NCBI GenBank assembly: GCA_000004985.1
Contig: GG738901.1
From: Naegleria gruberi
Lineage: Eukaryota
DNA length: 64,000 nt
Strand: one strand, 5' to 3'
Shown: positions 624-57,110 of the stretch, one piece after another
Layout of the letters: each line of letters starts with the position of its first letter
Numbering within the stretch: the stretch's first letter is position 1
Translations under genes and position numbers: made by a program
Notes under the pieces: model-generated
Database searches by the model: none
What the model was told of the DNA's origin: nothing
The model's input: only the letters and a program-made list of their open reading frames with translations

Positions 624-3600
624 ATGTTGAACAATAAATCTGAGCGAAGTGGTGATGAAAAAGAGGAGGATCTTGTGATTCAGAATCCCTCTAACTGTAA
701 ATGTAATAATCACAACAATGGTAAGCAGCATCTTGAAGGGACAAATTTAATGCAACAACCACAACCACTGTTGGATGATGATGTGAATGATATTCTTCAA
801 TTATTAACAATAGAAAGTTGCAGTGGAGGTTGTAGCTTTGATTGTCTTAAATTCGAAGAGAAGGAAGCAGTCGAAGAGGATACCTGTAATCCAATGTCGC
901 AACAACATCTTCCTTCCGATATCAAATCGGAACCAATTCTCCTACTGCTTACTGATAAGAAGGCAACATCAACAATGGATCACAACGTAAGTTATCATCA
1001 AACATGTAAATTAACGTGCCATTTGGGCGATTTGACTAATTCAGAAGTCGTATGCATCTAACAAACAAGGCGACAATTTTCATCATGAAAAAAGAACAGA
1101 CAATATCATCAACAAGAAGAACAAGGCTTCCTCATCATTAGGCAGTGCTTTTAAAGAAGATTTTGTAAATTTTGTTTCAGAATCCACAAGTTCCTCTTAC
1201 ATTCCGCAACAGCCATTCACAACATTATATTCGAAAAGAATGAAGGACGAAGAGATGGTGGAGAATAATCAATCTACTGTTAATGAAGATGGAATCAAGA
1301 CATCATCTGAAGCTAAACCAACACAATTTAACCACTCCTCACATCATCAAAGGCCTCATCATATTAACAAGGGTCTCGGAGAAGAACAACAATACAAATT
1401 TCCTTCATCTATTACACCACTTTCACTGGCCAATATTCATGCCAATGCATCGACTAACTTACTGCTAACTTCATCAACATTATTTAATTCTTCAAGTGAA
1501 TCACATGGTGGTGGAACCATTTCGAGAAGCTCCTCCAATACTTCAATGGATAGCTCCTCCTATTCACTCTTGAATAATCACCATCATCTAACCACATCTT
1601 CCTCACCCTCTGATGGTTTTCACTCAACTCTAAAATCCCTAGAAAATGTTCTCCCTCCATTCTTTACTCCATGCGTGCCACCTCATGCATCATTCAATTA
1701 CTATTCAGAACATTATTGGGGAGAACATCCCTTATCACTAACCTCCTTCTCTCCAATTCTTCATTATGAAAAGAAGTCATCTCTAACGATTATTTGTCGA
1801 TACACACCACAACAAACTAGGAATTCTCCAAGAAGGGAGAGACCTTCCTCTCAAAAAGAATTAATAGAGAATGAGATTTATTGTCTGAAAGTTTCACTGG
1901 ACAAACCATCCATTCCAAAGCTGGAAAGGGATGCAGAAATTTCTCGATTCTTGACCAATGAATTTTCTCAAGTGTTGGATCCAGCACAACAGGTTATTGT
2001 CAGTACTAAGGCCTATTTGTCTGATTATTTTATTCTCGTGAGGGAGTTTATTGATTGTGTTTCGTTGAGATCATTTATTGATAGATCGAAAACATATGCT
2101 AGAGCAGAACCAATTACTGATGAGAATTTTGAAACCTTAACAGATGATACTGTAACACTTCTCAATGAAGAACAACGAGTGAAAGAAAACATTACAATAT
2201 TGGAAAGTAATTTAACACTTGCTATTTCTATTTGTATGAGTGTTGCTCAACTGCATCACTCAAGAGTTTGTCATGCTGACATTAGGCCAGAAAATATAAT
2301 TGTAGAAGGACCTAAATGCAATATAAGATTGATTGATTTTGGAAAGAGTACATTCCTCCCTTTGGAGCATCCATTTTTATATACCGATAAAATTATTGGT
2401 AGTCAAATGTATTGTGCTCCAGAGGCAACAGGAAAGATTCCAAAACCAATAGGTTTCCACACTGATATATATTCACTTGGATTTGTTCTCTTTGAGTTAT
2501 TTTCCAAAGAACATCCATTTACCAAGTTTAGGACATTAGATTTCGTATTTCAACATTTGACTCAACAGCCAGAGTCCTTGTTTCAAAATCTAGCGAGAAG
2601 GTCTTTTATATCAGCCAATGAAGGAAACCTATTCACAGCTGCTACTAAAGCAATTTCAAGACTAATTACCAAAGCAATTCAAAAATCTATTGAGAAACGT
2701 TATTTGAGTATTTTTGGATTGAAACGAGATTTGGTCTACATACAGAATGCTATTCAACTAGAAGATATGGAAGCTCTTGAAAATTTTCAAGCTGGTATGA
2801 ATGATGTTCAAACAACTTTATCCATACCTTATGGTGTATATGGTAGAGAGGAAATTTTCAAAAAATTGGAACTGAAACTTGAAAATATGATGGAATCTAG
2901 TGAGCCAACGATTGTCCTTCTGGGGGGCTATAGTGGCATAGGTAAATCATGTATTGTTAAGGAGTTTAGGACAAGAAGTAAAACAGCAATACAATTCTTT
3001 GAGGCAAAATACGATCAACATATGAATGTACCTTACTATGCCATTATTTCCATATGTAAACAAATTATTGGCGACGTTCTTGGAGAATCTGAATCAGTGA
3101 TTAAGGATTTCAGATTCCAACTTGGTACACTTATCAATTCAGATCAATTAGAAATGTTGAGTGATGCAATTCCTGACATGTCATATTTATTTACAACTAA
3201 TGCAACCAAAAAGCATACCTCCCCATCAATGGGAGATCAGAATGGAGAGCGTATGAAGCTCTTTTCACAAGGAAGTAAGTAATATTTTGAATTTAACATT
3301 ATAACAATATTATATTGCTCAGTTATTCATCTCTTTAGTGTTTATACTCATTTAAAGAAAAAGAGGTTATGCATTTTCTTGGATGACTTGCAATGGACTG
3401 ATTTTGATAGCATGAAGCTATTGAAGGAAATTCTTGGAACTGGTTCTTGTGATACTGTTCCTCTTTTAATTATTGGAGCATATAGAAATAACGAAGTGGG
3501 AAAGGACCATCCTCTATTTTACTTTTTAGAAAATCTCAAACTTAAAGTGAACATTGAAGAAATTGAAGTTGTTGAGTTGACAGAAGATCAATCTAACATG

Positions 3601-7582: not shown

Positions 7583-10039
7583 ATGAAAAAACGACATTCA
7601 ACCTTTTCCACCACAATCAATCATCGAGATTTGATTAAATCATCTAATTTTAATTCATTATCTACTAGTAATATTCAATCATCATCATCACCAATATTGA
7701 GCACTACTTCTAGAAAAGGCTTCCGAGAACGACCACTCATCAAATTCATATTAAAACAACGTTCCAAACGATTGCAACAACAAGGCTCTAGTGAGTTTGC
7801 TGGTGCGGAAGTGGAAATTTTGAAGGCTTGTTGGAGAAAAATAGAGGAAGAGGAGATGAAGGACTATCGAGAAAATCTCTCGAATCGATTGGGGTTTTAT
7901 TTTGATGATGAGGAATTGTTGGCCATGTTCGGAAATCAATTGATGAAGGATGAAGAGGAACTACAGCAGAGGACGACAATGGATACTACCAACACTGAAC
8001 CAAGTTCGGCTGGTGGTGCTACTCTTGACAATTCTTCACTGAAGAGTGGTGACAGTGCTCGTTCATTGACAAGTTTCGGATCTGACTCGAAACTAAATTC
8101 GCCAATTAGTCCCAACCTCGACAAGAAGCATTTGCAGTCAACTTCATCGACCAAAAGCTCCACTTCATTTGCATCCTTCTCTGGTGCACCATCATCACTC
8201 ACACCAAGCCCAAACATTGAGGAGAACAAAAATCTTTCCTACCTCTACGATATTCATACTTTTCCTAGCAAGCTGAATCTGATACCAACCATGCATTATA
8301 ATGTGTTGGATGTTGTTGAGTTGTCCTCTGTACAGCAAATTGTAAATATAACAAGTCCTTCTTCGGAGATTGGGATACTTAAAGATTGTACAAATGATTC
8401 TTCTCCTACTGTAAATATTGAATCAACCACTTTTAGTCTCGAGATTTTAGATAGTTTTATTACTGTTGATTCTTTTGAAGATTTTTCAAATCCTTCATAT
8501 AATCCACTCAATATTAGACATTTATATTGTGATTATTGGTCCAACAAACTAGAATTCAAACAAAGGATCAGTAAATCTTCTCTTACTTCAAACAATAAGA
8601 AGGAAAATGAAAAATCAAAAAACTATATACCATTTGAAGAATTGGAAAAATGTAGAAATTGTACAGAACTCAAATTGAACAATAACAAGATTAGATCTCT
8701 AGATTCTAAACATTTTACCAATTTTGCACACTTGACAGAATTGAATCTATCTTCGAATAGAATGTCTAAAGCAAGACTGCCTGAGGATATTTTCTCACAT
8801 ATGCCACATTTGCAGAGGCTTTCTCTCGATTATATGGGTCTTAAGACTCTACCAAAATCAATTAACAAATTGGTAGAGCTTACCTACCTTTCACTTTCCT
8901 TTAACAAATTGAACACTTTCAACTTGCTACATGGAAAAGACAGACACTTGAATGATTTTTGGCCAAAATTGACCAATTTGGAGTACTTGAATTTGTCTGG
9001 AAATAGATTGAATAGATTTCCTTCAGAAATTTGTAATTGCAAATCATTGGAATTTTTGAGTTTGTCCAACAATAGAATAATTAACGAGATACCAAAGGAA
9101 ATTGAAAATCTCAAAAAATTAGCAATACTCTTCTTGAATGGAAACAAAGTTACTGCTCTTGATATTAATAGAAATTTGGAATTTTTAGAGAATTTGACCC
9201 ATTTGGAATTGGGTCACAATCCTAATATCCATGTGGTTCCACCTCCTGTTTACAATTTAACCAAATTAGAATCACTCTGTTTGAGCCATCTAACCATTAG
9301 TCATTTATCGGATGATATTGGAAAATTAAGAAATTTGACTCACTTGGATTTGTATGGCTCCAAACTAACTGGTCTTCCAAAGGGTATTTCACAGCTTATC
9401 AACCTTAGGAATTTGGATATGCGATATTGCAGAGGTATCAAGGAGTTCCCTATTGAATTGTTTGGTCAAAAAGTTTCAAGTAGCACTATCACTACTACCT
9501 CTCCAATGAAATCCCTTACTAGATTGAGTCTTAGCTATACAATGATAGAGAGCATTCCTGAGGATATTTCCTCTCTCCAGAGTTTACAAGCACTTTTGGT
9601 GAATGACTGTCCCTTGCTCGAAGAAATTAAGGGTATTGACAAGCTTGTCAATCTTGTAGAGTTTGACATCAGTCGTTGCATCTCCCTTGTTGAGCCTCCT
9701 TCTGATGTGTGTGAGAGAGGTCTTGCCCACATTAGAGGATATCTGAAAGAAAAGGACGATGGACCTTCTATTTTTTTAAAGTTTATTGGATCAGTATTTG
9801 GTGGAAATACCTCAAATAATTCCTCCACCAACAAGAAGAAACTACCTTCACCAATAGGCACAGAAAACAACCTCAAAGTGGAACACAATGAATTACTTGT
9901 TGCCTCACCAGTACCAAGCATTAATTCTGGAGATGATGATGGTGATAGTGATTCTGATGATGAGATTGGCGCATCTAAAAAGAAGAAACCAAGTCCAAGT
10001 GGCAGTACTGTCAAGTCATTATTTTCCTTTTGGAAATAA
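7583..10039 (+). CDS. Leucine-rich-repeat protein of 818 aa, with an S/T-rich N-terminus and an acidic C-terminus.
   Basis: Single long ORF. Tandem LxxLxLxxN repeats ('LTELNLSSNRMS', 'LEYLNLSGNRLNRFPSEI', 'LEFLSLSNNRIINEIPKEI', 'LTHLDLYGSKLTGLP'). ATG preceded by an A-run. Confidence 0.7.
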   Translation: MKKRHSTFSTTINHRDLIKSSNFNSLSTSNIQSSSSPILSTTSRKGFRERPLIKFILKQRSKRLQQQGSSEFAGAEVEILKACWRKIEEEEMKDYRENLSNRLGFYFDDEELLAMFGNQLMKDEEELQQRTTMDTTNTEPSSAGGATLDNSSLKSGDSARSLTSFGSDSKLNSPISPNLDKKHLQSTSSTKSSTSFASFSGAPSSLTPSPNIEENKNLSYLYDIHTFPSKLNLIPTMHYNVLDVVELSSVQQIVNITSPSSEIGILKDCTNDSSPTVNIESTTFSLEILDSFITVDSFEDFSNPSYNPLNIRHLYCDYWSNKLEFKQRISKSSLTSNNKKENEKSKNYIPFEELEKCRNCTELKLNNNKIRSLDSKHFTNFAHLTELNLSSNRMSKARLPEDIFSHMPHLQRLSLDYMGLKTLPKSINKLVELTYLSLSFNKLNTFNLLHGKDRHLNDFWPKLTNLEYLNLSGNRLNRFPSEICNCKSLEFLSLSNNRIINEIPKEIENLKKLAILFLNGNKVTALDINRNLEFLENLTHLELGHNPNIHVVPPPVYNLTKLESLCLSHLTISHLSDDIGKLRNLTHLDLYGSKLTGLPKGISQLINLRNLDMRYCRGIKEFPIELFGQKVSSSTITTTSPMKSLTRLSLSYTMIESIPEDISSLQSLQALLVNDCPLLEEIKGIDKLVNLVEFDISRCISLVEPPSDVCERGLAHIRGYLKEKDDGPSIFLKFIGSVFGGNTSNNSSTNKKKLPSPIGTENNLKVEHNELLVASPVPSINSGDDDGDSDSDDEIGASKKKKPSPSGSTVKSLFSFWK

Positions 10040-10137
10040 AGTGTTGAGTAAATAAAAACTGATGAAACATTTAGACATCACCAAATATAATGTCGTTTTT
10101 TCCCGTAAATGAGAAATATTTGCATTAAGAACAAGAT

Positions 10138-10209
10138 TCCCGTGTAGTCCAATGGCTAGGATACCTGGCTTTCACCCAGGAGGTCCGGGTTCAATTCCCG
10201 GCATGGGAG
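10138..10209 (+). tRNA. tRNA-Glu (anticodon UUC), 72 nt, no encoded CCA.
   Basis: Acceptor TCCCGTG / CATGGGA with one G-U. D-arm GTCCAATGGCTAGGAT. Anticodon stem CCTGG/CCAGG with loop CTTTCAC. T-arm CCGGGTTCAATTCCCGG. Followed by TCGTTTTTTATTTTT, a Pol III-type T-run. Confidence 0.85.
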
Positions 10210-10271
10210 AATCGTTTTTTATTTTTAAAAGTAATCTACAATGAAGTATTGTATTTTTTAAGCTTGATTCT

Positions 10272-32943: not shown

Positions 32944-33023
32944 TGCAGAAGGTGGGATTTGAACCCACGAAGCTTGCGCAGTAGAACTTGAGTCTACCCC
33001 CTTTGACCACTCGGGAACCCTGC
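32944..33023 (-). tRNA. tRNA-Leu (anticodon CAA), class II with a long variable arm and no intron.
   Basis: Reverse complement reads GCAGGGTTCCCGAGTGGTCAAAGGGGGTAGACTCAAGTTCTACTGCGCAAGCTTCGTGGGTTCAAATCCCACCTTCTGCA. Anticodon stem GTAGA/TCTAC with loop CTCAAGT. T-arm GTGGGTTCAAATCCCAC. The acceptor has 2 G-U pairs and 1 mismatch, so the ends are uncertain by 1-2 nt. ORF 32824..33030 is a translation artefact of this tRNA. Confidence 0.65.
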
Positions 33024-34647: not shown

Positions 34648-37600
34648 CTACTGTTTGAGGGAGTTTTTCAATCCTTGCATGTCTATCAAATACCACAAAT
34701 CTTGTTGGTGCTTGATGAGAATATTATCTTGTTGATTGAGTTTTTGAAGGAATTTAACGTTGTGTTTCAATCGATAGGAGGCATGAGCAATCTGGTGAAC
34801 ATCTAACTCGATGGCTGCAGTTGCAATTTCCTCATCATTTTGGAGTTTATGTTCAAGGTGAGCGAAAAGTTTTGGATTTTTCTTGACTGCTTGAAGAATA
34901 AATTCTCTGTCAGTTCTTAATTGATATGAGGCATGTAATAATGACTCTGGATGTGATGTAGTAGCAGCCAAAACAATTTCCTTATCATTTCTGAGATCTT
35001 CATCAAGTGCAGTCAATGCTTCTCCTGAATTGGTGACAGCTGCCATTACAACTTGTCTGTCAATCTTTAAATCATCAGATGCTCTATTAAGAATATTCCC
35101 CTTATTCATTACTGCTTTGATAACAATTTCCTTGTCAGATTGGAAATGAGGCACAGCATCAAGTAGTTGACCGTTCTTTTCAATATTCTCCAAAATAAAA
35201 TCTCGATCCATTCTAAGTTCCTTTGATAAAAAGTAAAATGATGTACATGTTGGAATAGCTGCTGAAACTACTTGTCTATCATTTTGTAAAGGTTTTGATG
35301 CAAACTTGATAGCATCCCCTGTCTGTTTTACAGCAACAAGCACAATTTCCTTATCATTTCTAAAATCCAATGAGACATATCTCAAATTCATTCCATTCTT
35401 GCTCATGGCATTCAAAACTATCTCCTTATTGTTTCTTAAATTTTCTGGAATCCAAAAAAGATTTGCTATGTGTTTGGATATTTCTAGTATAAATCCATAA
35501 TCATTTCTCAAACGATCTGAAATATGAGGGAGACAGTCTAATGTTGGCTCTTCATTTGATTTCATAGCATGAAGTACCAATTCCTTATCATCTTTCAACT
35601 CCTCTGATGCAAGTACCAATAGATGTGAATTATTTGTAACAACATTAAACATAAATTCGAAATCACTTCTGAAAGAAACGTCACAACCAAAGATGCAATA
35701 GCCATCATTTTTGGAAGCCAATAAAACTATTTCTCTATCTCCACTAAAGTGATCCAAAACAACTCCATATTTAGCAGATAATAAAGCAAATTCTCTATCT
35801 CTGGAAAATTCATTTCTAAAGAATGAAAGACTACTAGGATGTTTTCTTAGTACTTCTTCCAAAAAATCCATATCCATTCTCCAATCAAGTTTGACCAAAA
35901 CAGGGTTATAGTTGCTTATTGCCAAAAAAGATAATGCCTTATCAGATCTGAGACGCTTAGAGGCCAATTCAATGAGTTTACCATCTCTTTTTACGCATTC
36001 GTACACTATTTCTCTGTCATCCGAGTATAGCTCTGGAATATAGTTTGGTAAATTTTTCGAATATTCTAAAACCAACTCCCTATCACGCTTCATTTCAGAG
36101 GATTCTAGTCTAAATCCATACGTTTTTACTTGTGTAAGATACAGCTTTCTATCATTCAACATTGATTCAGGAATTTCAGGATGCCCAAAATAATTAAAAG
36201 CCTCCTCCAATATTTCTCTATCATTTTGGAAAGCTATAGGAATGCAACTCACATATCCTCCACATCTAATGGCTTTTAGCACAAAATCTCTATCATTCTG
36301 GAATTTTTCATCGACTGAATTTATATTTCCACCATACTGAGATATTGCTTTGATTACAATATACTTATCATTAATCAGTTCATCAGATGTGGCATATTCT
36401 AAAATGTCTGCTCCATAGTGAAGAGCTTTTAAAACACATTCCCTGTCGTTCTTCAAATCCTCTCCTGCAAAGTATAACGAACGAGGGTTACTTTCAATTA
36501 ATTTCATTATTAAATCCTTATCATTCAACAATTCAGTATTTCGAACATAATCAATTACTGTCTGATCTATTTCCAAAAGCTCCAAACAGAATTCCTTGTC
36601 CAATAATAACTCCTCAGAAACTGTTCGCATTATAGAGAATGCAGAATAGTCAATAAGCGCAGTCTTGACAATTTCTTTGTCTTTTTTTGAGTTTTTTCCA
36701 ACCATTTCCATTGCATCAAATTCACGCATATACAAAGTAAGTAAAACTATGTCTCTATCATCCTTTAGCTCTGGTGAAATATGTTTGAAAGTGGAGCTAT
36801 TTGTTCTAATTTGTTCCATAATAAATTGTTTGTCATTTTTTAAACATTCTGGAGCGTACTGAAATAGTTCACTATTCAACTTAATAGCCATTCGCATGAA
36901 TTCTACATCATTTTTCAAATCTGAAGAAATCACTGGCTGATAATTATTTCGTTTGATAGCCTCCAATATAATCTCCTTGTCGTTTTGTAATTCTGGACAA
37001 GTAAAACTAAAACAGTTAGGATATCTTTTGATTGTTTCCAAAACAATATTTCTGTCGTTTCTAAATTGATCTGGTAAATGTTGGAATCCATATGGACATA
37101 TTTCGAGTGCTTTTTTAACAATTTCATCATCATTCCTCAATTCTTCAGAAGCAAACTCAAGTACGCTTGTTCCCTTTGCTGACACAAGTGTCATAACAAA
37201 ATCTCTGTCTTTCAAGAGATCGGGATCAACGTACTTCAGTGCATGCTCATGCTTACAGGCAGCAAGATAAACAATTTCTCTATCGGCTCGTAATTTCTCC
37301 GAAGCATACTGAATGGATTGTCCACTGCTCATCACAGCAATTTTAACCAGAGTCTTGTCATTCTTTAATTCATCAGGTATTCTACTCAAATAATCTCCAT
37401 CCTTTCGTAAATATTTACATAGAATTAATCTATTACTCTCCAATAGTGGTGGTGAAGCTCTCCTGTGCCAAATTCTACCAAAGGAAGTCATTTCTGTTTG
37501 TATCCTCTCATACAGTTCATCATTGTCATGAATAACTTTCTCCCGAGCTTCTTGGAATTGGCTCATCAAGGAAAATGATTTTATTTGTCCGTACATATCA

Positions 37601-37665
37601 ATTTCTTCATCTGTGACACAGACAACTACCACATCACTCAGTGAAATCATTTTTTTAATAAACAA
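34648..37665 (-). CDS. Large DUF4116-repeat protein of 1005 aa.
   Basis: About 18 tandem ~50-aa repeats with 'L(K/R)ND(K/R)E(I/F)VL.A(V/I)...G..L.(Y/F)AS'. A7 run before the ATG. Confidence 0.75.
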   Translation of the reverse strand: MFIKKMISLSDVVVVCVTDEEIDMYGQIKSFSLMSQFQEAREKVIHDNDELYERIQTEMTSFGRIWHRRASPPLLESNRLILCKYLRKDGDYLSRIPDELKNDKTLVKIAVMSSGQSIQYASEKLRADREIVYLAACKHEHALKYVDPDLLKDRDFVMTLVSAKGTSVLEFASEELRNDDEIVKKALEICPYGFQHLPDQFRNDRNIVLETIKRYPNCFSFTCPELQNDKEIILEAIKRNNYQPVISSDLKNDVEFMRMAIKLNSELFQYAPECLKNDKQFIMEQIRTNSSTFKHISPELKDDRDIVLLTLYMREFDAMEMVGKNSKKDKEIVKTALIDYSAFSIMRTVSEELLLDKEFCLELLEIDQTVIDYVRNTELLNDKDLIMKLIESNPRSLYFAGEDLKNDRECVLKALHYGADILEYATSDELINDKYIVIKAISQYGGNINSVDEKFQNDRDFVLKAIRCGGYVSCIPIAFQNDREILEEAFNYFGHPEIPESMLNDRKLYLTQVKTYGFRLESSEMKRDRELVLEYSKNLPNYIPELYSDDREIVYECVKRDGKLIELASKRLRSDKALSFLAISNYNPVLVKLDWRMDMDFLEEVLRKHPSSLSFFRNEFSRDREFALLSAKYGVVLDHFSGDREIVLLASKNDGYCIFGCDVSFRSDFEFMFNVVTNNSHLLVLASEELKDDKELVLHAMKSNEEPTLDCLPHISDRLRNDYGFILEISKHIANLFWIPENLRNNKEIVLNAMSKNGMNLRYVSLDFRNDKEIVLVAVKQTGDAIKFASKPLQNDRQVVSAAIPTCTSFYFLSKELRMDRDFILENIEKNGQLLDAVPHFQSDKEIVIKAVMNKGNILNRASDDLKIDRQVVMAAVTNSGEALTALDEDLRNDKEIVLAATTSHPESLLHASYQLRTDREFILQAVKKNPKLFAHLEHKLQNDEEIATAAIELDVHQIAHASYRLKHNVKFLQKLNQQDNILIKHQQDLWYLIDMQGLKNSLKQ

Positions 37666-42569: not shown

Positions 42570-42769
42570 TGTACATATTAAACTTTTATTCTCTAACTGG
42601 TTTATTCTTTGATTTTTCTACAATATAGCATAATAATTGAGAAATAGTCCTAGTTGAATGTATCATAGATATTCTTCAGAGTTCTATCCTTAATAGAATA
42701 AGGAATATCCAAAAATCCTCTCAAAACCTTGAGCAAGTCAATTCCCATTGTCTATTCAAAATATTGCAA

Positions 42770-43826
42770 TTAAATATTAAAATGTTTAAAACTTACCAAA
42801 CCTAGAATACCAGCAATATCTCCTAATAAACCTTCAATTGTTCCAGTAATAATTTCAACAATATTATTTTGAACGAGTGATGAATAAGCAATAGTAATAT
42901 AAACTCCATCATCATCATTACCAACAATTTCAATGTTGGTATACTTTGAATCCCACCTAGTTTCTTCCAATTTGGGATTTTCAATGGATGGTTTCAATCT
43001 CTTTGTGTAAACCTTTGTCAACATGAATACATTATCCATATCAGGCATTGCATAATTGGTTTCAGCTAATAAATCAGGATCGGTTCCTGGCTCATGGAAT
43101 GAGATTTGAAGCCCAATTCTAGCCCCTGTAACATCTTCGTCTGGTCTAGTAATTGTAAAGTAGAGTTGTATGGATCCCATATATCCAGTTTTGTGTGTTG
43201 AAAATGGGTCCGTGGTACTATTATTAATGACATAACAATTAAAATCCGATCCCAATTGATTAATTCTCTTTTCTTCAATAAGTCTACCAGTTTCATTATA
43301 GGAAACATCTGAACCATCTACGTTCATTAAGCTCATATATTTAAATTTAATATCGCAATATTCACAATCTTCACCTCCAGAATTCCAATTACAAATTGTC
43401 ATTGCTTTCAAATGTGTTTACTTCGTTAAAGCACAGTTGTCTCAACTTACTTGGAAAAGCCATTGGCAATTTTGCTACATAGGATAATGAAGTAGTTGGA
43501 TTTGCAAGTGTTTCATAGTAATTAATAGTAGAATTATAAATATACCAAATGCAAAATCCAATCATTACGACCCATCCTACCAGAGTAATAATGTGATACC
43601 ATTTTGTTGGTAATTTACAGCAGTGTTTCACCTTTTTCTTCTTCTTCTTATCCTTTTTATCCTTCTTATCCTTCTTCTTTTCTGCCTTATTCTTATCTTC
43701 TTGCATCTCGACAATCGTTTGGTCTCCCGATGATTTACCTCCACCCTGATGTGAGTGATGTTGTTTCTGTTGCTGTTCTATCAGTTCCATTGACGATGAA
43801 GGAACTGGCTGCTGTGATTGTTGCAT
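42770..43826 (-). CDS. DEG/ENaC/ASIC-superfamily two-TM channel-like protein of about 336 aa. Exons 43451..43826 and 42770..43404.
   Basis: Lys-rich N-terminus. TM1 'IITLVGWVVMIGFCIWYIY'. Post-TM1 'FP' | 46-nt intron 43405..43450 (GTAAGT..TGAAAG) | 'TMTICNWN' (compare ASIC 'FPAVTFCNLN'). TM2 region 'EGLLGDIAGILGLVS' (compare ASIC 'GLLGDIGGQMGLFIGAS'). Paralogue of 43993..45042. Confidence 0.7.
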
Positions 43827-43992
43827 TATTTTGTTATTAAGGGAAAATAAAAAGCTTTTCAAACCAAATACAAGTTCACGCCATCTTAATTGTAGATACC
43901 TGCTGCATCTAGGAGAGAAATACAACACGCGCTTTCTAACGACGCCAACGAAGTCGTATAAAAGCATACAAAACACACAAGAGAGAGAAAAA

Positions 43993-45042
43993 ATGAAAAT
44001 ATCTTCTCCTGAATCGACCAATAATCAAGTCTTTCCATCAGCGATGGAATTAAGGAAGGAAAATGAGCCAAAGGTTAATGATGAAGAAGAACATTCCGAT
44101 GATCATTCATCATCGGAGGGCTCTGTTGATTCATTCTTTGGTTCAGATCCATTGAAAAAACGTATAGGATATAGTATTAAGGACCTTATCACATTATTGG
44201 GTTGGATTGCATGTACAGGAGTATTCATTTGGTACTTTTACTCTTCAATAACACAAACTGTGGAGGCTTTTCAAAATCCTGCCACCACAGTTTCCTACAA
44301 AGCCAAGACGCCAATGTATTTCCCTGCAGTGACTTTGTGTAATTGGAATCCTGATGATGAGGAAGGAGGAAATAAGGGGAGTAAATTTGAAGCTGTTGGA
44401 TGTTATAGAACTGTAGTGTCACCTAATAATGTGAGCTATGTACCATGTGAATTTCCCTATTATGAGAAGACAATATTCTCTGGAGTGTACTATATGAATT
44501 GTATTGTTTTTAACAATGATACAAGTGCACCTGCTGTTGCTTCCCGTACTGGACATACTGGATCGTTGGTTTTTAAGGCAAGGTTTCCTTTTGATTTTTT
44601 TGGTGAGGATGATATGACTGGATTTAGAGCTGGAGCAACTGTTTCATTTCATGAAGTGGGATCAGTGCCCAATCTATCTGATGAAACGAATACAGCATCT
44701 GGAGGATTGGATAATACATTTACCATTCGAAAGATGGTGAACAAACGATTGGTTCCAAATCCAACCACTGAAATCTATTGGGATTCAGATTATTCTGCCA
44801 TTGACATGATTGAGAATAGAACTGATTACATCACTGTAACGGTGGCTTATAACTCATTGAATATTAGAGAGCAGACAGATGTATACACTGTCAATATACT
44901 CCAATTATTGGGTCAGCTTGCAGGTATGACCGGTACATTGTACGGTTTGGAAATTCTCAAAGTTTTGAGAGGATGTTTGTGGATTCCAAAATCAATCAAG
45001 AAGAAGACTGCAAAATATATTTGGGAAGAGTTCAATAGATAA
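43993..45042 (+). CDS. DEG/ENaC/ASIC-superfamily two-TM channel-like protein of 349 aa. Divergent head-to-head paralogue of 42770..43826.
   Basis: TM1 'LITLLGWIACTGVFIWYFY'. 'YFPAVTLCNWNPDD'. Ectodomain of about 250 aa with few Cys. TM2 'ILQLLGQLAGMTGTLYGLEILKVL'. A ~166-bp shared upstream region lies between the two ATGs. Confidence 0.7.
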   Translation: MKISSPESTNNQVFPSAMELRKENEPKVNDEEEHSDDHSSSEGSVDSFFGSDPLKKRIGYSIKDLITLLGWIACTGVFIWYFYSSITQTVEAFQNPATTVSYKAKTPMYFPAVTLCNWNPDDEEGGNKGSKFEAVGCYRTVVSPNNVSYVPCEFPYYEKTIFSGVYYMNCIVFNNDTSAPAVASRTGHTGSLVFKARFPFDFFGEDDMTGFRAGATVSFHEVGSVPNLSDETNTASGGLDNTFTIRKMVNKRLVPNPTTEIYWDSDYSAIDMIENRTDYITVTVAYNSLNIREQTDVYTVNILQLLGQLAGMTGTLYGLEILKVLRGCLWIPKSIKKKTAKYIWEEFNR

Positions 45043-45058
45043 AGAGGTTTGAATTGTA

Positions 45059-46477
45059 TTATATTTTGATGACTTCCATCTTCTTGATAGCTTCCTCATC
45101 AAAATCTGTATTGTTTTGAACTGTTCTGTGTTTGATTGCTTCAACCTTGCTCAATTTTTCACGTTGCTTCTTGTCCTTCCTTTCTCGTTTGGTGAGTTTC
45201 TTTTCTTTTGTCTTGCTACTCGATGTCGAGTCCTCTACTGTTGAGGTACTTGAGGATGATGAACCAATAGTATTAGAATTGGAAGATGGAGGTGGATTAC
45301 TTTCAGAGCCCAACTCTAATAAAATTCCAATAACCATTTCAGTATTGAAATTATTTTGAATAATCATATCCTTCACCATTTCCAAATCAAATCCGCTCTC
45401 ATAACCAATTGTTGACATGACCATATCAAAGCATAAATCCAAATTTCCATCACCTGAAGCAGCTGGTGAAGAGAAGGCTGTGTTCTGTAATTCATGGCTC
45501 TTACTACTTCCTACAGAGCTATTGCTTGACTGGCTCTTTGAATTCTTCTTGCTATTACTACTGGTGCTGGATGCTGATGAGCTCTCAAGGTATTGCATTT
45601 GGCAGAGGAAATCAATTGTTGAGTCCATATCTTGTCCAAAATCTGCCAAAGTATTTCTAATCAATTCCAAATCGGTACATCCAGTAGATTGAATAATTAT
45701 TTGTTCCTTTTTAGAGATTTCACCTGATGATGATTTACCTTCGCTAGCCCTTTGATATAATTCTCGAACACTGTCACTCATGAAATGAACAGAATTGTAA
45801 TGTTCTCCCATATGATAACTGAGTTGAATAAGTCTACTCTCTGGTTGATTATAGTTAACAATATCAAATGATGGCTGTCCTAATTGGTGAACTCGAATAT
45901 TTACATTGAATGCCAGTGAAATACTATAAACAAGATTGAAAACATCAGTCATTAATCAAGTCAAAAAATAAACTAACCTTTGCAAAGTGAGATTATCACC
46001 CCACTCTGTATCCTTCTTCATAGTTTTACAATAATCTTCAAATGGTTCATCACAAACAAATGGAGAAAACATATCCGGATTGGTAATCATATATTCCACA
46101 GCTCCTTGTCTAATTTTTTGGTACTGAGTTTGATCTCCATACAATTGATCACTCACAGACCTAAACTGACAATTTCCATCACCAGTAACCTTCTTCAAAT
46201 ACAATCCATAAGGTTCCAATTGTTGATTCATTTTCTGGAAATCTTCATCCTCCAATTTTATTCCGCCCCCTCGCTTTTTCTTTTTTCTATCCTTCTTATT
46301 GTTATAAATTTCTGGATCATCATATTCGGATTGTTTCATGGTGGATGCTTTTTTAGAGAAGGGATCTTCTTCATCGGCACTTCTCCCACCATGATGAGAT
46401 TTCTTCTTTGATTGTTCGTAGGCTTGTTTTCCGCTGAGTTTGCTACTATTCTTCTGTTTGCCCATTTTTTTTTGCAT
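45059..46477 (-). CDS. OTU-domain cysteine protease (deubiquitinase) of about 454 aa with a Ser-rich linker and a C-terminal UBA/CUE-like helical region. Exons 45978..46477 and 45059..45923.
   Basis: Cys box 'GDGNCQFRSVSDQLYG'. 'EWGDNLTLQ' | 54-nt intron 45924..45977 (GTTAGT..TTTATAG) | 'SISLAFNVNIRVHQ'. His box 'SYHMGEHYNSV'. Confidence 0.8.
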
Positions 46478-46558
46478 CTAAAAATAAAATTTTTGTGATT
46501 TTTGAAAAATGAATTTTCAATTTACAAATTGAGCGTAAAATTGTTGAGATAAATATTA

Positions 46559-49319
46559 TTATTTGAGTTGTTTATTGATTTTGATGCATAATCTTTCTGC
46601 CATTGATAATGGTCGAGTTGTGGTAGAAGATGACAAGCTGCCACTTGAGAAACATGAAGAATATTGACACACATCACCAAAACTTCCAACACTGCACGAG
46701 CAAAAATCAAATCCTGTGCAAGATCCTTTTCCTCCACAAACTGTTGGGTTTGTTGCTTCAATTCCAAAACATGTTGGAGCTATTTCACATTTAGCTCCAC
46801 TGTAACTTGTTGGACATGAGCAATTTCCAGTCTCAGGAATGCAACTTCCTCCATTCAAACATGGGCTAACTGTACAGTTAGTATATTGACACTCACTGCC
46901 AAAAAAACCTTCTTGACAAGCACAAGTGTCAAAATTCACACAATTTCCTCTTTTGGAACAAACTTCACTTCCAATTTTTTCATAGCATTTGATTAAGCAT
47001 AGAGATCCATCCTGTTTCAGGGCATAGTTTGAGCTGTCACAAACAGGTGTCAATCTTCTTATTAAATTGGTAGATGCATCCGACAAGTAAATTTGTCCAG
47101 TCAATTCGTCCAATATAATTTGTTCAATACCTATTAATCTTGCTGATCGTGCATCAATATCTTCTCCATTTTCAATGATTCCGTCCCTATTTAAACTACC
47201 AGCAATTGTTTCAATTTGTAAGGTGGAACTGTCAACTCTTCTAATGGTTCTTCTTTGAGCAATAAATAAGTCACCACTCTTTTTTGAAACTGCAATTGAG
47301 ACAGGTTTGACAATATTAGCATCAAGTGCTGAGCCACCATCTCCAGAAGTCCATTGGCCTCCTACAACACCAGCATATCTTGTAATATTTACAAAATTTG
47401 CATTAATCTTTCTAATAACTGAATTTTGATAATCACAAACAAATAAATCTCCATTCGAATTGAAAGAAAGATCGTATGGAAGATTCAATTTAGCAATTGT
47501 TGGGTCTCCACCATCTCCTGAATAATCCCCAGCTCCTCCTTGTCCTGCAACTAGATCAATAGTTGCCATTTGTGTCATGTTAAATTTTCTAACTTGGTTG
47601 TAAAAGGTTGTAAAGTAAAAGGTATCACGATTATTTGGAGCAAATGCAAATGATCTAACTCCTTGATATTGGCTTTCAAAAATTGGAAGAGCAAAGTCAG
47701 AAACTGTTCTTGAACTCGTGTCCAATATTCTATGTTTGAAACTGTCATATATCAAAAATACATTTGGACCCAGGACAGTATCTCCTATTAAGGCAGTGGG
47801 ATGAGTGAAAGAGGCTGTCGAAGCAGCACCATTATCATAACCAATATCACCACTTCCTGCCATAGTTTGAACTAAATTGGTGTGCAAATCAATTTTTCGA
47901 ATTCGATAATTGAGACTATCCAAAAATATTAAACTAGTATCTTCTCCATTTCGTCTCAGAAACAAGTCTGTTGCGTTGTTAAAGACTGCCTCATTACCAT
48001 TCACATTATCTTTAAAATTTTCATCAATACCTGCAATGGTTATTACGTTATTTACACCATTAGAGTTCATTGTAATCTTTCTTAATCGCCTATTTCCAGA
48101 ATCGTTAACAATCATTGAGTATTCACTAGTGTTTGGATCATAGTAATATAGCATTGTACTTGGGTTGTTGAATTGTGCAACCTTGGCATCTCCTCCATCA
48201 CCTTTTTAGATTCAAATTTAGAAAATTTAATATGACCATTATTAAATTATTGAAATGTGACTTACCTGAAAACCCTGGATTTCCAAACACACCAGCAAAT
48301 GGAGATATAATACCAGTAGTCATATTAATCACCCGAATACACGATGAATCTGAAATATACATTTCATAATCATCAGTTATTGGATTGATTGCCAAATAAA
48401 TTCCATTAATAGTTGAAAAATAAGCTTCCTGCTTATCTGAACCATATCCTGGACCTTTCCCACTCTCTGGGGTTCCTGCAAATACATTGATGAGTTGCAG
48501 TAATGGATTACTATCCAATTTCATGCTGAAAATAGCTGAATATCCTGCGCCATTTACTACCATATATAGGTAACTCCCTGCTTCATCCACAACTAATCTT
48601 GAAACAGCAGAAATTGCAGTTGATGTAGCCAAACTATTGATAGTAGCTCCTAAATCCAAAGAGTTCAGTCCATTTCCTGCTATATTTGTCACTTGTTTTG
48701 AGCTCAGGTCAAATTTTCTAATCTTGTTAAAACCAGTTTCACTGAAGAACAAAGAATTATTGGCATAAGCAGCACCAGTCGGATACAATATGTAAATACT
48801 CAAAGCATCACCATCGATACCCCCTTCTCCACCTCCACCAACAACCATTTCGACTGTTCTATCCGAAAGTGAAATTTTGGAAATTCTGTTCAATCGCTTG
48901 TTTCCAATAAGAAAGGTATTATCATTCGGATTCAATACAAGAGAATAGGCACCAAATAGTGGCCCCTGTGTGGCATCCTCTCCATCGGCCCCAACCACAG
49001 TTTCAAAAAACAGAGTTGACCACAATTCTGGTTTCGTATCTGTATTCATCACGTCCAAACTAATCCTCCTCAATCTCTGCTCTGACAACAAATACAATGA
49101 ATTATTAAAGATGGCCATGTCCTGAACCAGACCAAGTGCTGCAAGTTTTAATGGATTCGTGTCTGTAGTAATATTATATCCAACCACGGTTTTAATTTTA
49201 TAACTTGGACGCATGGATGTGGCCACGGCTGCTTTGGCTTGTGTGAATGGAAGAAAACAGAGACAAATGCCAATGAGAAAGATGACGCAGGACACAATGG
49301 TTTGTCCAACAGTTGTCAT
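46559..49319 (-). CDS. Secreted NHL-repeat protein of about 898 aa (two beta-propeller blocks) with C-terminal EGF-like Cys-rich modules. Exons 48266..49319 and 46559..48201.
   Basis: Signal peptide 'MTTVGQTIVSCVIFLIGICLCFLPFTQAKA'. More than 12 NHL-like repeats ('GDGG.A..A.L..P.G.A.D..G.LYV.D..N..IR'). The 64-nt intron 48202..48265 (GTAAGT..AAAAAG) joins ORFs 48198..49319 and 46559..48154 ('NPGFSG' | 'DGGDAKVAQFNNP'). EGF-like 'CACQEGFFGSECQ', 'CSCPTSYSGAKCE'. Confidence 0.75.
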
Positions 49320-54923: not shown

Positions 54924-57110
54924 TTATTTACTACTATACTTTCTGAAACAAATTTCATCCTTGACCTCTGTTGAAAGTCTTGCCAGTGTTTCTCTATTGT
55001 TGAAAAGGTTTTGAATGTTTTCCACTCCAAAGTTGATTAGTCTTTCATAAACTGAATCATTGTAATTTCCTAATTGTTCAAATAATGTGCAAAAATTATC
55101 AATTGTAATTTGTAAATTATTCAAATAGTAATCTATCATTTCCTTTACGTCATAAAGTGCAAAACATTTAAAAAGTGGAAGAGCTTGATTGATTGGAACA
55201 CTGGAAACATCGAAAACTCCATAACAATATTTCAGAACTATCTCATGTAGGTCTTCCGAGAATTCCTCAGTATCAATAACATAAATATCATCCTTCAAGT
55301 CTTGATATTCAAAACCACTATTGAATAGTGCTTCATAGTATGGGCTGTTGGATGCAAGAATTGTTTTGTGTGCATAGAATTCTTTTGTGCCCGTCTTGAT
55401 GGTAATATCGCTTGTTGCTTTGTCGTTGAAGAGTGTTTCAACTGACTTAGTGGTCTTATCTGATGTTTCATCATCATTGATAGTAATTGGATTTATGGTA
55501 GTGGATAGCTTTTTGGCAATCGGCACAAGATGTTTTTGAAATATTGGAATGTCAACTGCGCTTGCCGATTGTTGCATTGTTTTTGCAGCGTGGCCAATAC
55601 AGTAGTCCAGTAATTGGTCTAGCAATGGATTATCAATGAACAAAGGTGCACTGTCTTTAGCTTGTGTAACTTTTTCCAAATTTTTGGAAACTAGTTGAGC
55701 ACAAGATTGACTAAATGATTTTGTAAATTCATCTACCAATTTTCTCTTCAGAGAAGTAAATCCTTTTGACATTCCAAGAATGGCCAAGATATCAACCAAT
55801 TCATACTTGTCAAACCATTCACTATCGTGATATTGTTGGTACATGATTGAATCAATTAAATGTTGAATGATTTCCATTTGAGTGGAAGTTAAGTGTTTCA
55901 ATAAAAAGGAATTGAAAACAATAGATTTAGAGAAATGAGGAGCCAAAATATTAAATACACTCTTACAGCATATCAAGTTAGTTCCATCAACAAGGTCTCT
56001 ATCATACTTTTTCAATTTGAAAGAAAGTGGTTTGAGCAGAGTTGCATGATAGGATCCAACAATTTTCCTAATTCTATTATTTCCAAAATCGCTGAAATAC
56101 ACATCTCCATTCTTTGCATGAACTGCTATTTGACATGGAGAAGAAATCTTTGCATTTATAGCAAGGCCACCATCTCCGTCAAATCCCTTTTCATTGATTC
56201 CACAAACTGTAGTGATTCTTCCATCAATTGGTGAAACTGTACAAATTCTGTTATTGCTTCGATCTGTCACATAGATAATTTGACCTCTAGTGCAAAATGA
56301 AACATCATATGGATAATTCAATTGTGCATCAATACCATCTGAATATCCTGCTTTTCCTGTTCCTGCCAATGTTGTAATGATTCCACTTTTACAATTAACC
56401 TTTCTAACTCTATGATTATTCGAATCCGCAATATAAACATCACCAGTAGTTGGATTAAAATCGAGCCCACTAGGGCCATTAAGTTGAGCATTTGTTGCAA
56501 ATCCACCTTCCCCACAAAATCCAGCAGTTCCATTTCCAGCAAATGTTGAAATAATTCCAGACGAATTAGAAATTCTTCTTATTTTGTTATTAACAAAATC
56601 AATAATATAAATATCAAAAGTTATTGGATGAATCTTGACACACTGTGGAAAATACAATTGAGCAAATAATGCCAACCCACCATCACCTGACGTACCTCCA
56701 GTATTATTACCTGCAACTGTACTTATGGTACCATAGGTTAATGAAATCTTTCTAATTCTATGATTGGAATAATCAGCAATATACAGCTCCTCATTCTTTG
56801 GATGAATTGAAACAGATAATGGACAATTTAATTGAGCATGTAAAGCCAGCCCTCCATCACCTGAATAACCTGCAACTCCAGTACCAGCAATAGTAGTGAT
56901 CTTATTATCCAATGCAGACACTTTACGAATACAATGATTTCTATAATCTGCAATATACACATCATTACTATAGGGATTAACAGCTACACCATATGGAGAG
57001 GAAAGTTTAGCCTCTATTGCTAAACCATTGTCTCCATAGAAACCTTTAATGCCATTACCAGCAATAGTCCAAATTGTTTGTTCCATTCCCTTTGGTGATT
57101 GACGCATCAT
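54924..57110 (-). CDS. NHL-repeat beta-propeller (N-terminal) fused to a BTB/POZ (+BACK-like) C-terminal domain, 728 aa.
   Basis: Six NHL repeats ('YGVAVNPYSNDVYIADYRNHCIRKV', 'CPLSVSIHPKNEELYIADYSNHRIRKI', ...). BTB 'DITIKTGTKEFYAHKTILASNSPYYEALFNSGFEY'. Confidence 0.75.
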   Translation of the reverse strand: MMRQSPKGMEQTIWTIAGNGIKGFYGDNGLAIEAKLSSPYGVAVNPYSNDVYIADYRNHCIRKVSALDNKITTIAGTGVAGYSGDGGLALHAQLNCPLSVSIHPKNEELYIADYSNHRIRKISLTYGTISTVAGNNTGGTSGDGGLALFAQLYFPQCVKIHPITFDIYIIDFVNNKIRRISNSSGIISTFAGNGTAGFCGEGGFATNAQLNGPSGLDFNPTTGDVYIADSNNHRVRKVNCKSGIITTLAGTGKAGYSDGIDAQLNYPYDVSFCTRGQIIYVTDRSNNRICTVSPIDGRITTVCGINEKGFDGDGGLAINAKISSPCQIAVHAKNGDVYFSDFGNNRIRKIVGSYHATLLKPLSFKLKKYDRDLVDGTNLICCKSVFNILAPHFSKSIVFNSFLLKHLTSTQMEIIQHLIDSIMYQQYHDSEWFDKYELVDILAILGMSKGFTSLKRKLVDEFTKSFSQSCAQLVSKNLEKVTQAKDSAPLFIDNPLLDQLLDYCIGHAAKTMQQSASAVDIPIFQKHLVPIAKKLSTTINPITINDDETSDKTTKSVETLFNDKATSDITIKTGTKEFYAHKTILASNSPYYEALFNSGFEYQDLKDDIYVIDTEEFSEDLHEIVLKYCYGVFDVSSVPINQALPLFKCFALYDVKEMIDYYLNNLQITIDNFCTLFEQLGNYNDSVYERLINFGVENIQNLFNNRETLARLSTEVKDEICFRKYSSK

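What the first reader, a model, noticed from the sequence alone, without database searches (positions are those of the whole stretch)
42770..45042. Head-to-head pair of minimal DEG/ENaC/ASIC-like channel genes in a non-metazoan genome
Two paralogous ORFs are transcribed divergently from a ~166-bp shared region; the left one is split by a 46-nt intron. Both have the DEG/ENaC topology: cytoplasmic Lys-rich N-terminus, TM1, the post-TM1 'FPAVTLCNWN' / 'FP|TMTICNWN' box (ASIC1 has 'FPAVTFCNLN'), a ~250-aa ectodomain, and a TM2 carrying 'GLLGDIAGILGLVS' / 'LLGQLAGMTGTLYGLE' (ASIC 'GLLGDIGGQMGLFIGAS', the selectivity-filter region). The family is essentially metazoan, with only sporadic protist members, and these are far smaller than animal channels (~340 aa vs >500 aa) and Cys-poor. 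A compact, divergently promoted pair in a protist-like genome is worth characterising as a potentially ancestral-type Na+/H+-gated channel.
Basis: partly seen in the sequence, partly recalled or inferred. Interest (0 to 1): 0.8.

Follow-up and report, generated by a model that had tools for sequence, protein, structure and literature searches.

The report
Paired mini DEG/ENaC-like channel genes, Naegleria
Two neighbouring, divergently transcribed genes of the amoeba Naegleria gruberi encode stripped-down relatives (about 350 amino acids) of animal sodium channels of the ASIC/ENaC type; they are real but missing or garbled in the reference annotation, and they have an altered pore motif and no tested function.

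Summary
The finding is real and its main reading holds. The window is Naegleria gruberi. The right gene (43993..45042, +, 349 aa) and the left gene (-, 361 aa) are paralogues (35% identity, E 1e-62) whose start codons lie 166 bp apart.

The left gene has three exons, not two. The 46-nt intron is right. A second 45-nt intron (42752..42796) was missed, so the gene ends at 42650, not 42770.

They belong to a protist-only "mini" clade. It has two TM helices and an all-beta core, with no finger, thumb or knuckle. G-[L/I]-[D/E] replaces the G-A-S filter, followed by a near-invariant Lys.

In all six loci examined the family occurs as adjacent gene pairs, usually one L-type plus one R-type. That suggests heteromeric channels. 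Na+ or H+ gating is untested.

In the reference annotation the right gene is absent, and the left gene is buried in a 1563-aa chimeric model. Verdict: a new variant of a known kind, of moderate interest.

The parts
43993..45042 (+). R gene: single-exon CDS of 349 aa plus the TAA stop. It is an R-type mini DEG/ENaC-like subunit.
43827..43992 (.). 166-bp shared intergenic region between the two start codons, presumed to be a bidirectional promoter.
   Evidence: About 6 of the 10 differences between the window and the second-strain contig L001 (9 mismatches and 1 gap in 1752 nt) fall here by comparison of the two printed sequences. R's 1050-nt CDS has 1 difference, and L exon 1 has 2, both silent. 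Promoter function is inferred, not tested.
43451..43826 (-). L gene exon 1 (residues 1-125 plus 1 nt): Lys-rich cytoplasmic N-terminus, TM1 (about 43536..43592), beta1, and the start of the FP box.
   Evidence: Translation. Kyte-Doolittle 19-residue peak of 2.12 at residues 79-97. Residues 6-125 are 100% identical to NAEGRDRAFT_81362.
43405..43450 (-). L gene intron 1: 46 nt, GTAAGT...AG, phase 1.
   Evidence: It restores the frame and the TMTICNWN box with the invariant Cys130. The reference model uses a farther acceptor and so deletes 29 aa including that box. No RNA evidence is available.
42797..43404 (-). L gene exon 2 (residues 126-328): TMTICNWN box, the all-beta ectodomain, and the first half of TM2 (LLGDIAGILGL).
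42752..42796 (-). L gene intron 2: 45 nt, GTAAGT...AG, phase 0, inside TM2.
   Evidence: The junction GILGL|TMGIDLL is identical in NAEGRDRAFT_81362. An intron sits at almost the same place in N. fowleri gene 1 and in L006 gene 2.
42650..42751 (-). L gene exon 3 (residues 329-361 plus the TAG stop): second half of TM2 with G331-I332-D333 (42737..42745) and K336, then the cytoplasmic tail.
   Evidence: G331 is an invariant family column and K336 a near-invariant one.
44320..44349 (+). R post-TM1 box FPAVTLCNWN (residues 110-119).
   Evidence: It aligns with FPAVTLCNLN of human ASIC1a and ASIC2 and FPAVTFCNLN of ASIC5. C116 is invariant. P111, N117 and N119 are at least 90% conserved.
44896..44979 (+). 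R TM2 (residues 302-329). G318-L319-E320 (44944..44952) stands in place of the ASIC G-A-S belt. K323 and R326 stand in place of ASIC Thr and Glu.
   Evidence: AlphaFold helix 302-329. HMM alignments to ASIC1a, ASIC2, ASIC5 and FaNaC TM2. Column counts: G 36/36; D 32 plus E 2 of 36; K 35/36; R 21/36.

Best explanation
The two genes encode subunits of a two-transmembrane channel of the DEG/ENaC (Pfam ASC) superfamily, presumably trimeric. They belong to a divergent protist 'mini' clade.

Each subunit keeps only the core: a cytoplasmic N-terminus, TM1, the FPxxTxCNxN box, an ectodomain of about 200 residues with 12 to 13 beta strands (palm plus beta-ball), TM2, and a short cytoplasmic tail. The ectodomain keeps the Cys pair that corresponds to the ASIC Cys in FPAVTxCN and the Cys in CYTFN. 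The finger, thumb and knuckle are absent.

L and R represent two old subunit types that are kept next to each other in several loci and species. The most likely arrangement is co-expression from the shared 166-bp region and assembly into a heteromeric channel, in the way ENaC uses alpha, beta and gamma subunits.

The pore differs from animal channels. G-[L/I]-[D/E] replaces G-A-S, a near-invariant Lys lies three residues later, and an Arg replaces the lower-pore Glu. Ion selectivity and gating are therefore probably not ASIC-like or ENaC-like. My best guess is a cation-permeable plasma-membrane channel that responds to the ionic, osmotic or mechanical environment of this freshwater amoeba.

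Shown: gene structure, paralogy, family membership by sequence and fold, loss of the peripheral domains, the pore motif, and gene pairing. Inferred: trimer, heteromer, co-regulation, conductance and stimulus.
For: - Pfam ASC hits are above the cut-off for both proteins and for 36 of 36 relatives.
- The family profile hits ASIC5 at 4e-12, FaNaC at 5e-11, ASIC1 and ASIC2 at about 1e-10, and ENaC-gamma at 5e-7. The matches fall in three collinear blocks: TM1 plus the FP box, the CYxFN...H..P block, and beta12 plus TM2.
- The AlphaFold model has pLDDT 83.5 and pTM 0.71. It shows helices 62-94 and 302-329, and 13 strands with no ectodomain helix longer than 4 residues.
- An exhaustive phmmer search over 1.84 billion representatives found 74 relatives. 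Nearly all are 300 to 400 aa. The named ones are all Naegleria, apart from one weak hit to a hemichordate protein (Ptychodera flava, E 1.9e-4).
- Pairing: all 6 loci with flanking sequence carry two adjacent family genes.
- The NJ tree puts an L-type member (clade bootstrap 94%) and an R-type member (61-67%) in each of four loci. The pair is therefore older than its duplication and dispersal.
- R-type pore residues vary more (E, E, G, D) than L-type ones (D), as expected for non-equivalent subunits.
Against: - There are no functional, expression or localisation data of any kind.
- The TM2 hydropathy is weak, below 1.4 in R, and the helix carries D/E, K and R.
- The canonical G/S-x-S filter and the His-Gly motif are absent, so conduction itself is an inference from homology.
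- Heteromerisation rests only on conserved adjacency. In N. fowleri the two neighbours are both L-like and 52% identical, which looks like a recent tandem duplicate.
- Bootstrap support for the R-type clade is only moderate.
- The structure is a monomer model made with 36 sequences.
Confidence: 0.6

Rival explanations
1. Each gene forms its own homotrimeric channel. The adjacency only records local duplication history and has no functional meaning (no heteromer, no co-regulation).
For: Tandem duplication is the simplest source of neighbouring paralogues. The N. fowleri pair is 52% identical and both members are L-like. Most animal DEG/ENaC subunits can form homomers (own knowledge).
Against: L and R share only 35% identity, yet the L-type plus R-type combination recurs in four separate loci: the window, L002, L004/L005 and L006. 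It recurs in head-to-head and in tandem orientation. Old duplicates normally disperse, so retention over this divergence argues for selection on linkage.
Confidence: 0.25
2. The proteins work like PAC/TMEM206: proton-activated or otherwise gated anion channels built on the same minimal beta core, rather than cation channels.
Confidence: 0.1
3. The genes are not channels. They are two-TM surface proteins (receptor or adhesion) that retain the fold, or they are decaying pseudogenes.
For: The canonical filter and the His-Gly motif are lost. No function is known for any member.
Against: The ORFs are intact and both introns are canonical. Between two strains the coding sequence is far better conserved than the intergenic DNA. 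The strongest family-wide conservation lies in TM2 and the pore-proximal boxes (G318 36/36, K323 35/36, D/E 34/36). That pattern is what selection on a pore would produce.
Confidence: 0.04
4. The genes are a recent horizontal acquisition from an animal, not an old protist lineage.
For: The patchy distribution of DEG/ENaC outside animals has led others to consider lateral transfer (PMC10507113).
Against: The only animal protein among the 74 hits is at E 1.9e-4. All closer relatives are mini-type proteins from Naegleria or from unnamed environmental sequences, and the clade is deeply diverged (19-40% identity). The genes have Naegleria-type short introns and the local GC content.
Confidence: 0.03

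Closest known systems
Metazoan DEG/ENaC channels (ASIC1, ASIC2, ASIC5/BASIC, ENaC alpha/beta/gamma, FaNaC; Pfam PF00858)
   Different: The mini proteins are about 150 residues shorter. The finger, thumb and knuckle helices are absent; the ASIC blocks of 59 and 105 residues are replaced by about 20 residues each. Only 3-4 ectodomain Cys are present, against 14 in ASIC (the ASIC number is own knowledge). G-A-S or G/S-x-S is replaced by G-[LI]-[DE]. ASIC Thr becomes Lys, and the lower-pore Glu becomes Arg or a small residue. There is no His-Gly before TM1.
PAC / TMEM206 / ASOR proton-activated chloride channel
   Different: There is no PF15122 hit. All conserved boxes are DEG/ENaC-type. No equivalent of the helix-turn-helix insertion that PMC7904269 describes in PAC was seen in the model's secondary structure. 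Anion selectivity is untested.
Naegleria paralogues and orthologues: N. gruberi NAEGRDRAFT_64420/64421 and 64710 with its neighbour, and N. fowleri FDP41_006661 with its neighbour (all 'predicted' or 'hypothetical' proteins)
   Same: They belong to the same mini clade (30-47% identity) and have the same boxes and the same paired gene arrangement. 64420/64421 is also head-to-head, about 102 bp apart.
   Different: 64420 has an extra N-terminal extension of about 200 aa. 64421 has G and M at the D/E and K pore positions. The N. fowleri and 64710 pairs are tandem, not divergent.
Previously reported non-metazoan Deg/ENaC homologues (Cafeteria roenbergensis, Tunicaraptor unikontum; PMC10507113, PMC9822975)
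   Same: They are DEG/ENaC-superfamily genes in unicellular eukaryotes.
   Different: Those sequences cluster with the metazoan ASIC and ENaC sub-clusters. These two papers name only Heterokonta and Filasterea and do not mention Naegleria. From memory (paper not held here), Studer et al. 2011, Physiol Genomics, did report an ENaC/degenerin homologue in N. gruberi.

Membership tests
DEG/ENaC superfamily (Pfam ASC, PF00858) | Significant match to the family profile, above the curated threshold | tested here: met
   L scores 47.5 bits and R 48.8 bits against a cut-off of 23.6. All 36 of 36 relatives match. The reverse profile hits ASIC, ENaC and FaNaC PDB chains at E 4e-12 to 5e-7.
DEG/ENaC superfamily (Pfam ASC, PF00858) | Two TM helices flanking a large ectodomain, with both termini cytoplasmic | tested here: met
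   AlphaFold helices 62-94 and 302-329 flank a beta domain. The TM1 hydropathy peak is 1.7-2.1 and TM2 is weaker. The sidedness of the termini is inferred, not tested.
DEG/ENaC superfamily (Pfam ASC, PF00858) | Post-TM1 box FPxxTxCN, and a conserved Cys pair with the CYxFN box | tested here: met
   R has FPAVTLCNWN and NCIVFNN. L has FPTMTICNWN and NCYVINN. Both Cys columns are invariant in 36 or 37 sequences. The disulfide itself was not checked, because no coordinates were available.
DEG/ENaC superfamily (Pfam ASC, PF00858) | Palm and beta-ball fold | tested here: met
DEG/ENaC superfamily (Pfam ASC, PF00858) | G/S-x-S selectivity filter (the GAS belt) in TM2 | tested here: not met
   The aligned triplet is G-L-E in R and G-I-D in L. 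Across the family the third position is D in 32, E in 2 and S in 1 of 36.
DEG/ENaC superfamily (Pfam ASC, PF00858) | His-Gly gating motif before TM1 | tested here: not met
   There is no HG in the 25 residues before TM1 of either protein. R has ...KKRIGYSIKDL and L has ...VKHCCKLPTKW. The Pfam match begins after that part of the profile, at HMM position 23.
DEG/ENaC superfamily (Pfam ASC, PF00858) | Peripheral finger, thumb and knuckle domains (the acidic pocket in ASIC; protease-sensitive GRIP in ENaC) | tested here: not met
   The model has no ectodomain helix longer than 4 residues. The corresponding ASIC segments fall in alignment gaps.
DEG/ENaC superfamily (Pfam ASC, PF00858) | Trimeric assembly and an amiloride-sensitive, Na+-selective current | not testable with these tools
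   This needs biochemistry and electrophysiology.
PAC / TMEM206 (Pfam PF15122) | Match to the family profile | tested here: not met
   There is no PF15122 hit at E up to 10 for L and R, or up to 1 for the 36 members.
PAC / TMEM206 (Pfam PF15122) | Minimal architecture: about 350 aa, two TM helices and a 12-stranded beta domain without large peripheral domains | tested here: met
PAC / TMEM206 (Pfam PF15122) | Sequence homology detectable by profile methods | tested here: inconclusive
   The forward profile gives E 1.1e-6, restricted to TM1 and beta1. hhalign gives probability 70% and E 3.9e-5 over 53 columns. The reciprocal HMM built from PAC exon fragments reaches only E 0.022. No full-length PAC alignment was available.

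The most novel reading that the evidence does not exclude
The Naegleria and environmental mini clade preserves the ancestral bare-core channel: two TM helices plus a 12-stranded beta domain. Both animal DEG/ENaC channels (by adding finger, thumb and knuckle) and PAC/TMEM206 chloride channels descend from it. On this reading the PAC-ASIC resemblance, published as 'structural convergence' without sequence homology, is divergence from a common ancestor. The clade also works as an obligate two-subunit-type heteromer encoded by a conserved gene pair, with an acidic-plus-basic pore motif (G-x-D...K) of unknown selectivity.
Probability: 0.25. Interest if true: 0.75.

Novelty: new variant of a known kind. 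Interest (0 to 1): 0.5.

Why it matters
DEG/ENaC channels are usually treated as an animal invention with a few disputed protist outliers. This locus gives two more clear non-animal members. Neither is usable from the reference annotation.

The locus also defines a compact clade that contains only the structural core shared by cation-selective ASIC/ENaC and anion-selective PAC. Three questions become directly testable with short, easily synthesised genes:
- What is the minimal gating and conduction machinery of this fold?
- What do an Asp/Glu ring and a Lys in place of the GAS belt do to selectivity?
- Are PAC and DEG/ENaC homologous?

The conserved L-type/R-type gene pair is a ready-made hypothesis for heteromeric assembly. 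On the practical side, the N. gruberi annotation needs correcting. NAEGRDRAFT_81362 should be split into four genes, and R should be added.

Tried and rejected
- The word-index homology search with R returned only R itself. With the family profile it returned only 3 proteins. These searches were uninformative, so the exhaustive phmmer search was used instead.
L was therefore never modelled.
- The AFDB Foldseek library was not available. There is therefore no structural census by taxon.
- A look-up of P0002 by exact sequence failed. The strain variant P0075 supplied the locus instead.
- My last homology search, with a PAC N-terminal fragment, returned only exon fragments of 70-190 aa. The PAC-versus-family profile comparison is therefore limited to TM1 and beta1.
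- Literature searches found nothing for the Naegleria locus tags and nothing linking ENaC or degenerin to Naegleria beyond a 2013 BLAST survey that found none in pathogenic protozoa. Studer et al. 2011 and Hanukoglu 2016 are not held.
- Rejected: an upstream start for L at the ATG near 43967. It would add 47 non-homologous residues across the fast-evolving intergenic DNA.
- Rejected: the upstream ATG used in P0001. In this strain that codon is ATA.
- Rejected: the reference model's longer intron 1. It deletes the invariant Cys box.
Full report
**Source of the window.** The window is AT-rich (GC 0.31-0.37), gene-dense eukaryotic DNA with short introns. The N. gruberi protein NAEGRDRAFT_81362 (EFC39296.1, 1563 aa) maps onto window 49118..42653 on the minus strand. 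Over the L gene it is 100% identical apart from two model differences described below. The window is therefore Naegleria gruberi. Neighbouring genes are ordinary for that genome: a DUF4116 repeat protein, an NHL/EGF protein, an OTU protease, kinases, LRR proteins and two tRNAs.

**The observation.**
- R is a single ORF, 43993..45042 (+), of 349 aa.
- L starts at 43826 (-). The two ATGs are 166 bp apart.
- L and R share 35% identity from end to end, BLASTP E 1e-62.
It restores the frame and creates FP|TMTICNWN, whose Cys is invariant in the 37-sequence family alignment that includes L.
Its ORF ended in translated intron ('...GLVSFKHFNI*').
- With that intron removed, L continues ...GILGL|TMGIDLLKVLRGFLDIPYSIKDRTLKNIYDTFN* and stops at 42650. 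This matches R's ...GTLYGLEILKVLRGCLWIPKSIKKKTAKYIWEEFNR* position for position. It also equals the C-terminus of the reference model.
- L is therefore 361 aa in three exons.
- Only L has a Lys-rich N-terminus. R's N-terminus is acidic.

**State of the reference annotation.**
- NAEGRDRAFT_81362 fuses four minus-strand genes: ORF 48198..49319, the NHL/EGF gene 46559..48154, the OTU protease 45059..46477, and L.
- The model leaves the OTU gene five codons before its stop, at 45074. It re-enters at codon 6 of L and so treats the whole R gene as an intron.
- It also uses a farther acceptor for intron 1. That deletes 29 residues, including TMTICNWN.
- R has no NCBI or UniProt protein. Its 90%-identity cluster contains one ENA metagenome ORF. 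That ORF comes from a 1746-bp contig of a second strain with the same head-to-head layout.
- Between the two strains, about 6 of the 10 differences fall in the 166-bp spacer. One falls in R's 1050-nt CDS. Two silent ones fall in L exon 1.

**Family membership.**
- Both proteins pass Pfam ASC: 47.5 and 48.8 bits against a cut-off of 23.6.
- An exhaustive phmmer search of 1.84 billion representatives found 74 relatives at E up to 1e-3. Almost all are 300-400 aa.
- The named relatives are N. gruberi NAEGRDRAFT_64421, 64420 and 64710, and N. fowleri FDP41_006661. The rest are unnamed JGI, ENA or Logan environmental sequences. The only animal protein is a hemichordate one at E 1.9e-4.
- All 36 aligned members hit ASC and none hits TMEM206.
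- A profile of the family hits solved DEG/ENaC chains: ASIC5 4e-12, FaNaC 5e-11, ASIC1 and ASIC2 about 1e-10, ENaC-gamma 5e-7. The matches fall in three collinear blocks:
  - TM1 plus FPAVTxCN.
  - F.CY.FN ... G.GS ... R.GLQVSFH..G..P, which corresponds to ASIC KCYTFN ... AGVKVQIHSQSEPP.
  - V.VSFAY..LN ... LLGD.AGM.G.LMG, which corresponds to ASIC LDIFFEALNYE...LLGDIGGQMGLFIG.

**Structure.**
- AlphaFold2 on R with the 36-sequence alignment gave mean pLDDT 83.5 and pTM 0.71. The model has helices 62-94 and 302-329 and thirteen strands. No ectodomain helix is longer than four residues.
- Foldseek ranks PAC/ASOR and ASIC together: 2e-14 and 2e-13.
- In the HMM alignments, the ASIC segments that hold the finger (about 59 residues in ASIC5) and the thumb (about 105 residues) face about 20 residues each in the mini proteins. 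The knuckle falls in an insertion.
- The proteins are therefore the bare beta core that PMC7904269 describes as common to TMEM206, ASIC and ENaC.

**How they differ from animal channels.** Aligned to ASIC1a ...GLFIGASILTVLELF, the family consensus is ...GvLMGlDvlKllrgi.
- G-A-S is replaced by G-[L/I]-[D/E]: G 36/36; D 32 plus E 2 of 36.
- The ASIC Thr is a Lys in 35 of 36.
- The lower-pore Glu is an Arg in 21 of 36 and a small residue otherwise.
- No His-Gly precedes TM1.
- Only the Cys pair corresponding to FPAVTxC and CYxFN is invariant.
- The elements that form the ASIC acidic pocket are absent. 'H+-gated' therefore has no structural basis here, and Na+ selectivity cannot be assumed.

**Gene pairing.** Every locus with enough flanking sequence carries two adjacent family genes.
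- The window: L(-) and R(+), head-to-head.
- N. gruberi 64420(-) and 64421(+): head-to-head, about 102 bp apart.
- An environmental organism, on two contigs: 338 aa (-) and 302 aa (+), about 75 bp apart.
- A second environmental contig: tandem.
- N. gruberi 64710 and its neighbour: tandem.
- N. fowleri: tandem.

A bootstrapped NJ tree recovers an L-type clade with 94% support: L, 64420, the 338-aa gene, L006 gene 2 and P0012. It recovers an R-type clade with 61-67% support: R, 64421, L006 gene 1, the 302-aa gene and relatives. Four loci therefore each hold one gene of each type. The pair is older than its duplication. That is the main argument for functional coupling, most simply co-expression and heteromeric assembly. 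R-type pore residues vary (E, E, G, D) while L-type ones stay Asp. Heteromerisation remains an inference.

**A possible link to PAC.**
- The family profile also hits several PAC/TMEM206 chains: E 1.1e-6 to 1e-4, over TM1 and beta1, with the shared pattern P..(S/T)VSYK. That is five orders of magnitude better than the best unrelated membrane protein (P2Y14, E 0.07).
- hhalign against PAC N-terminal fragments gives probability 70% and E 3.9e-5 over 53 columns.
- The reciprocal HMM is not significant (best E 0.022), although no decoy or shuffled sequence scored at all.
- This is suggestive only. The literature calls the PAC-ASIC likeness convergence without sequence homology (PMC7904269). A bare-core clade with DEG/ENaC boxes and a PAC-like size is worth a proper full-length profile comparison.

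**What is already known.**
- Recent DEG/ENaC phylogenies list Heterokonta and Filasterea-related species as the non-animal exceptions and do not mention Naegleria (PMC10507113, PMC9822975).
- A 2013 BLAST survey found none in pathogenic protozoa (PMC3681921).
- From memory, Studer et al. 2011 (Physiol Genomics) reported an ENaC/degenerin homologue in N. gruberi. That paper is not held here.
- No paper mentions the locus tags.
- So the presence of the superfamily in Naegleria is not new.
- As far as I could find, these points are undescribed: the two genes themselves, the corrected models, the bare-core architecture, the G-x-D...K pore motif, the conserved L/R gene pair and the PAC signal.

**Verdict.** The interpretation as minimal DEG/ENaC-like channel genes in a protist is supported. 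Na+/H+ gating is unsupported. I rate this a new variant of a known kind, with interest 0.5.

Noticed in passing
window 42650..49319 (-): The reference gene model NAEGRDRAFT_81362 (1563 aa) is a chimera of four separate minus-strand genes: ORF 48198..49319, an NHL/EGF protein at 46559..48154, an OTU protease at 45059..46477, and the L channel gene. It leaves the OTU gene five codons before its stop. It treats the whole R gene as an intron, which leaves R unannotated. It also deletes the TMTICNWN box of L.
   Followed up: yes
window 42752..42796; L003 about 7760..7800; L006 about 3180..3220: An intron inside TM2, just before the G-[L/I]-D triplet, is shared within two codons by L, N. fowleri gene 1 and an environmental homologue. 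Prokaryote-style ORF callers read into it, so several metagenome 'proteins' of the family (P0006, P0011, P0014, P0034, P0036) are truncated at this point.
   Followed up: partly
R residues about 60-112 (window 44170..44328); PDB chains 8h8d, 7jna, 9hqn, 8zlb: The family profile matches the PAC/TMEM206 chloride channel over TM1 and beta1 (E 1.1e-6; hhalign probability 70%). Foldseek ranks PAC level with ASIC. The literature treats PAC and ASIC as having no sequence homology. The reciprocal search was weak, so this stays open.
   Followed up: partly
L002 415..3249; L003 6772..9264; L004 1739..3738; L006 1126..3300; L007 806..2844: In every related locus fetched, the mini DEG/ENaC genes occur as adjacent pairs: three head-to-head (counting the window) and three tandem. 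Four of the pairs combine one L-type and one R-type gene.
   Followed up: yes
L002 2083..3249 (NAEGRDRAFT_64421): This R-type paralogue has Gly and Met (…TLYGFGFVMFWRT…) where the rest of the family has the near-invariant Asp/Glu and Lys of TM2. It may be a modulatory or non-conducting subunit.
   Followed up: no
window 43827..43992 compared with L001 308..467: Between two N. gruberi strains the 166-bp spacer carries about 5 substitutions and a 6-bp indel, while the flanking coding DNA is nearly identical. One of these substitutions (ATA to ATG) creates an upstream in-frame start for R in the other strain.
   Followed up: partly
window 34648..37665 (-): A 1005-aa protein made of about 20 DUF4116 repeats (Pfam E 1.4e-184).
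   Followed up: no
window 10137..10210 (+) and 32944..33023 (-): tRNA-Glu(TTC) and tRNA-Leu(CAA) genes.
   Followed up: no
window 46559..48154 (-) and 54924..57110 (-): There are two NHL-repeat proteins, one with EGF/teneurin-like repeats and one with a BTB domain. Part of the chimeric model (P0009 residues 49-607) also matches the second at 26-31% identity, so they are paralogues about 8 kb apart.
   Followed up: no
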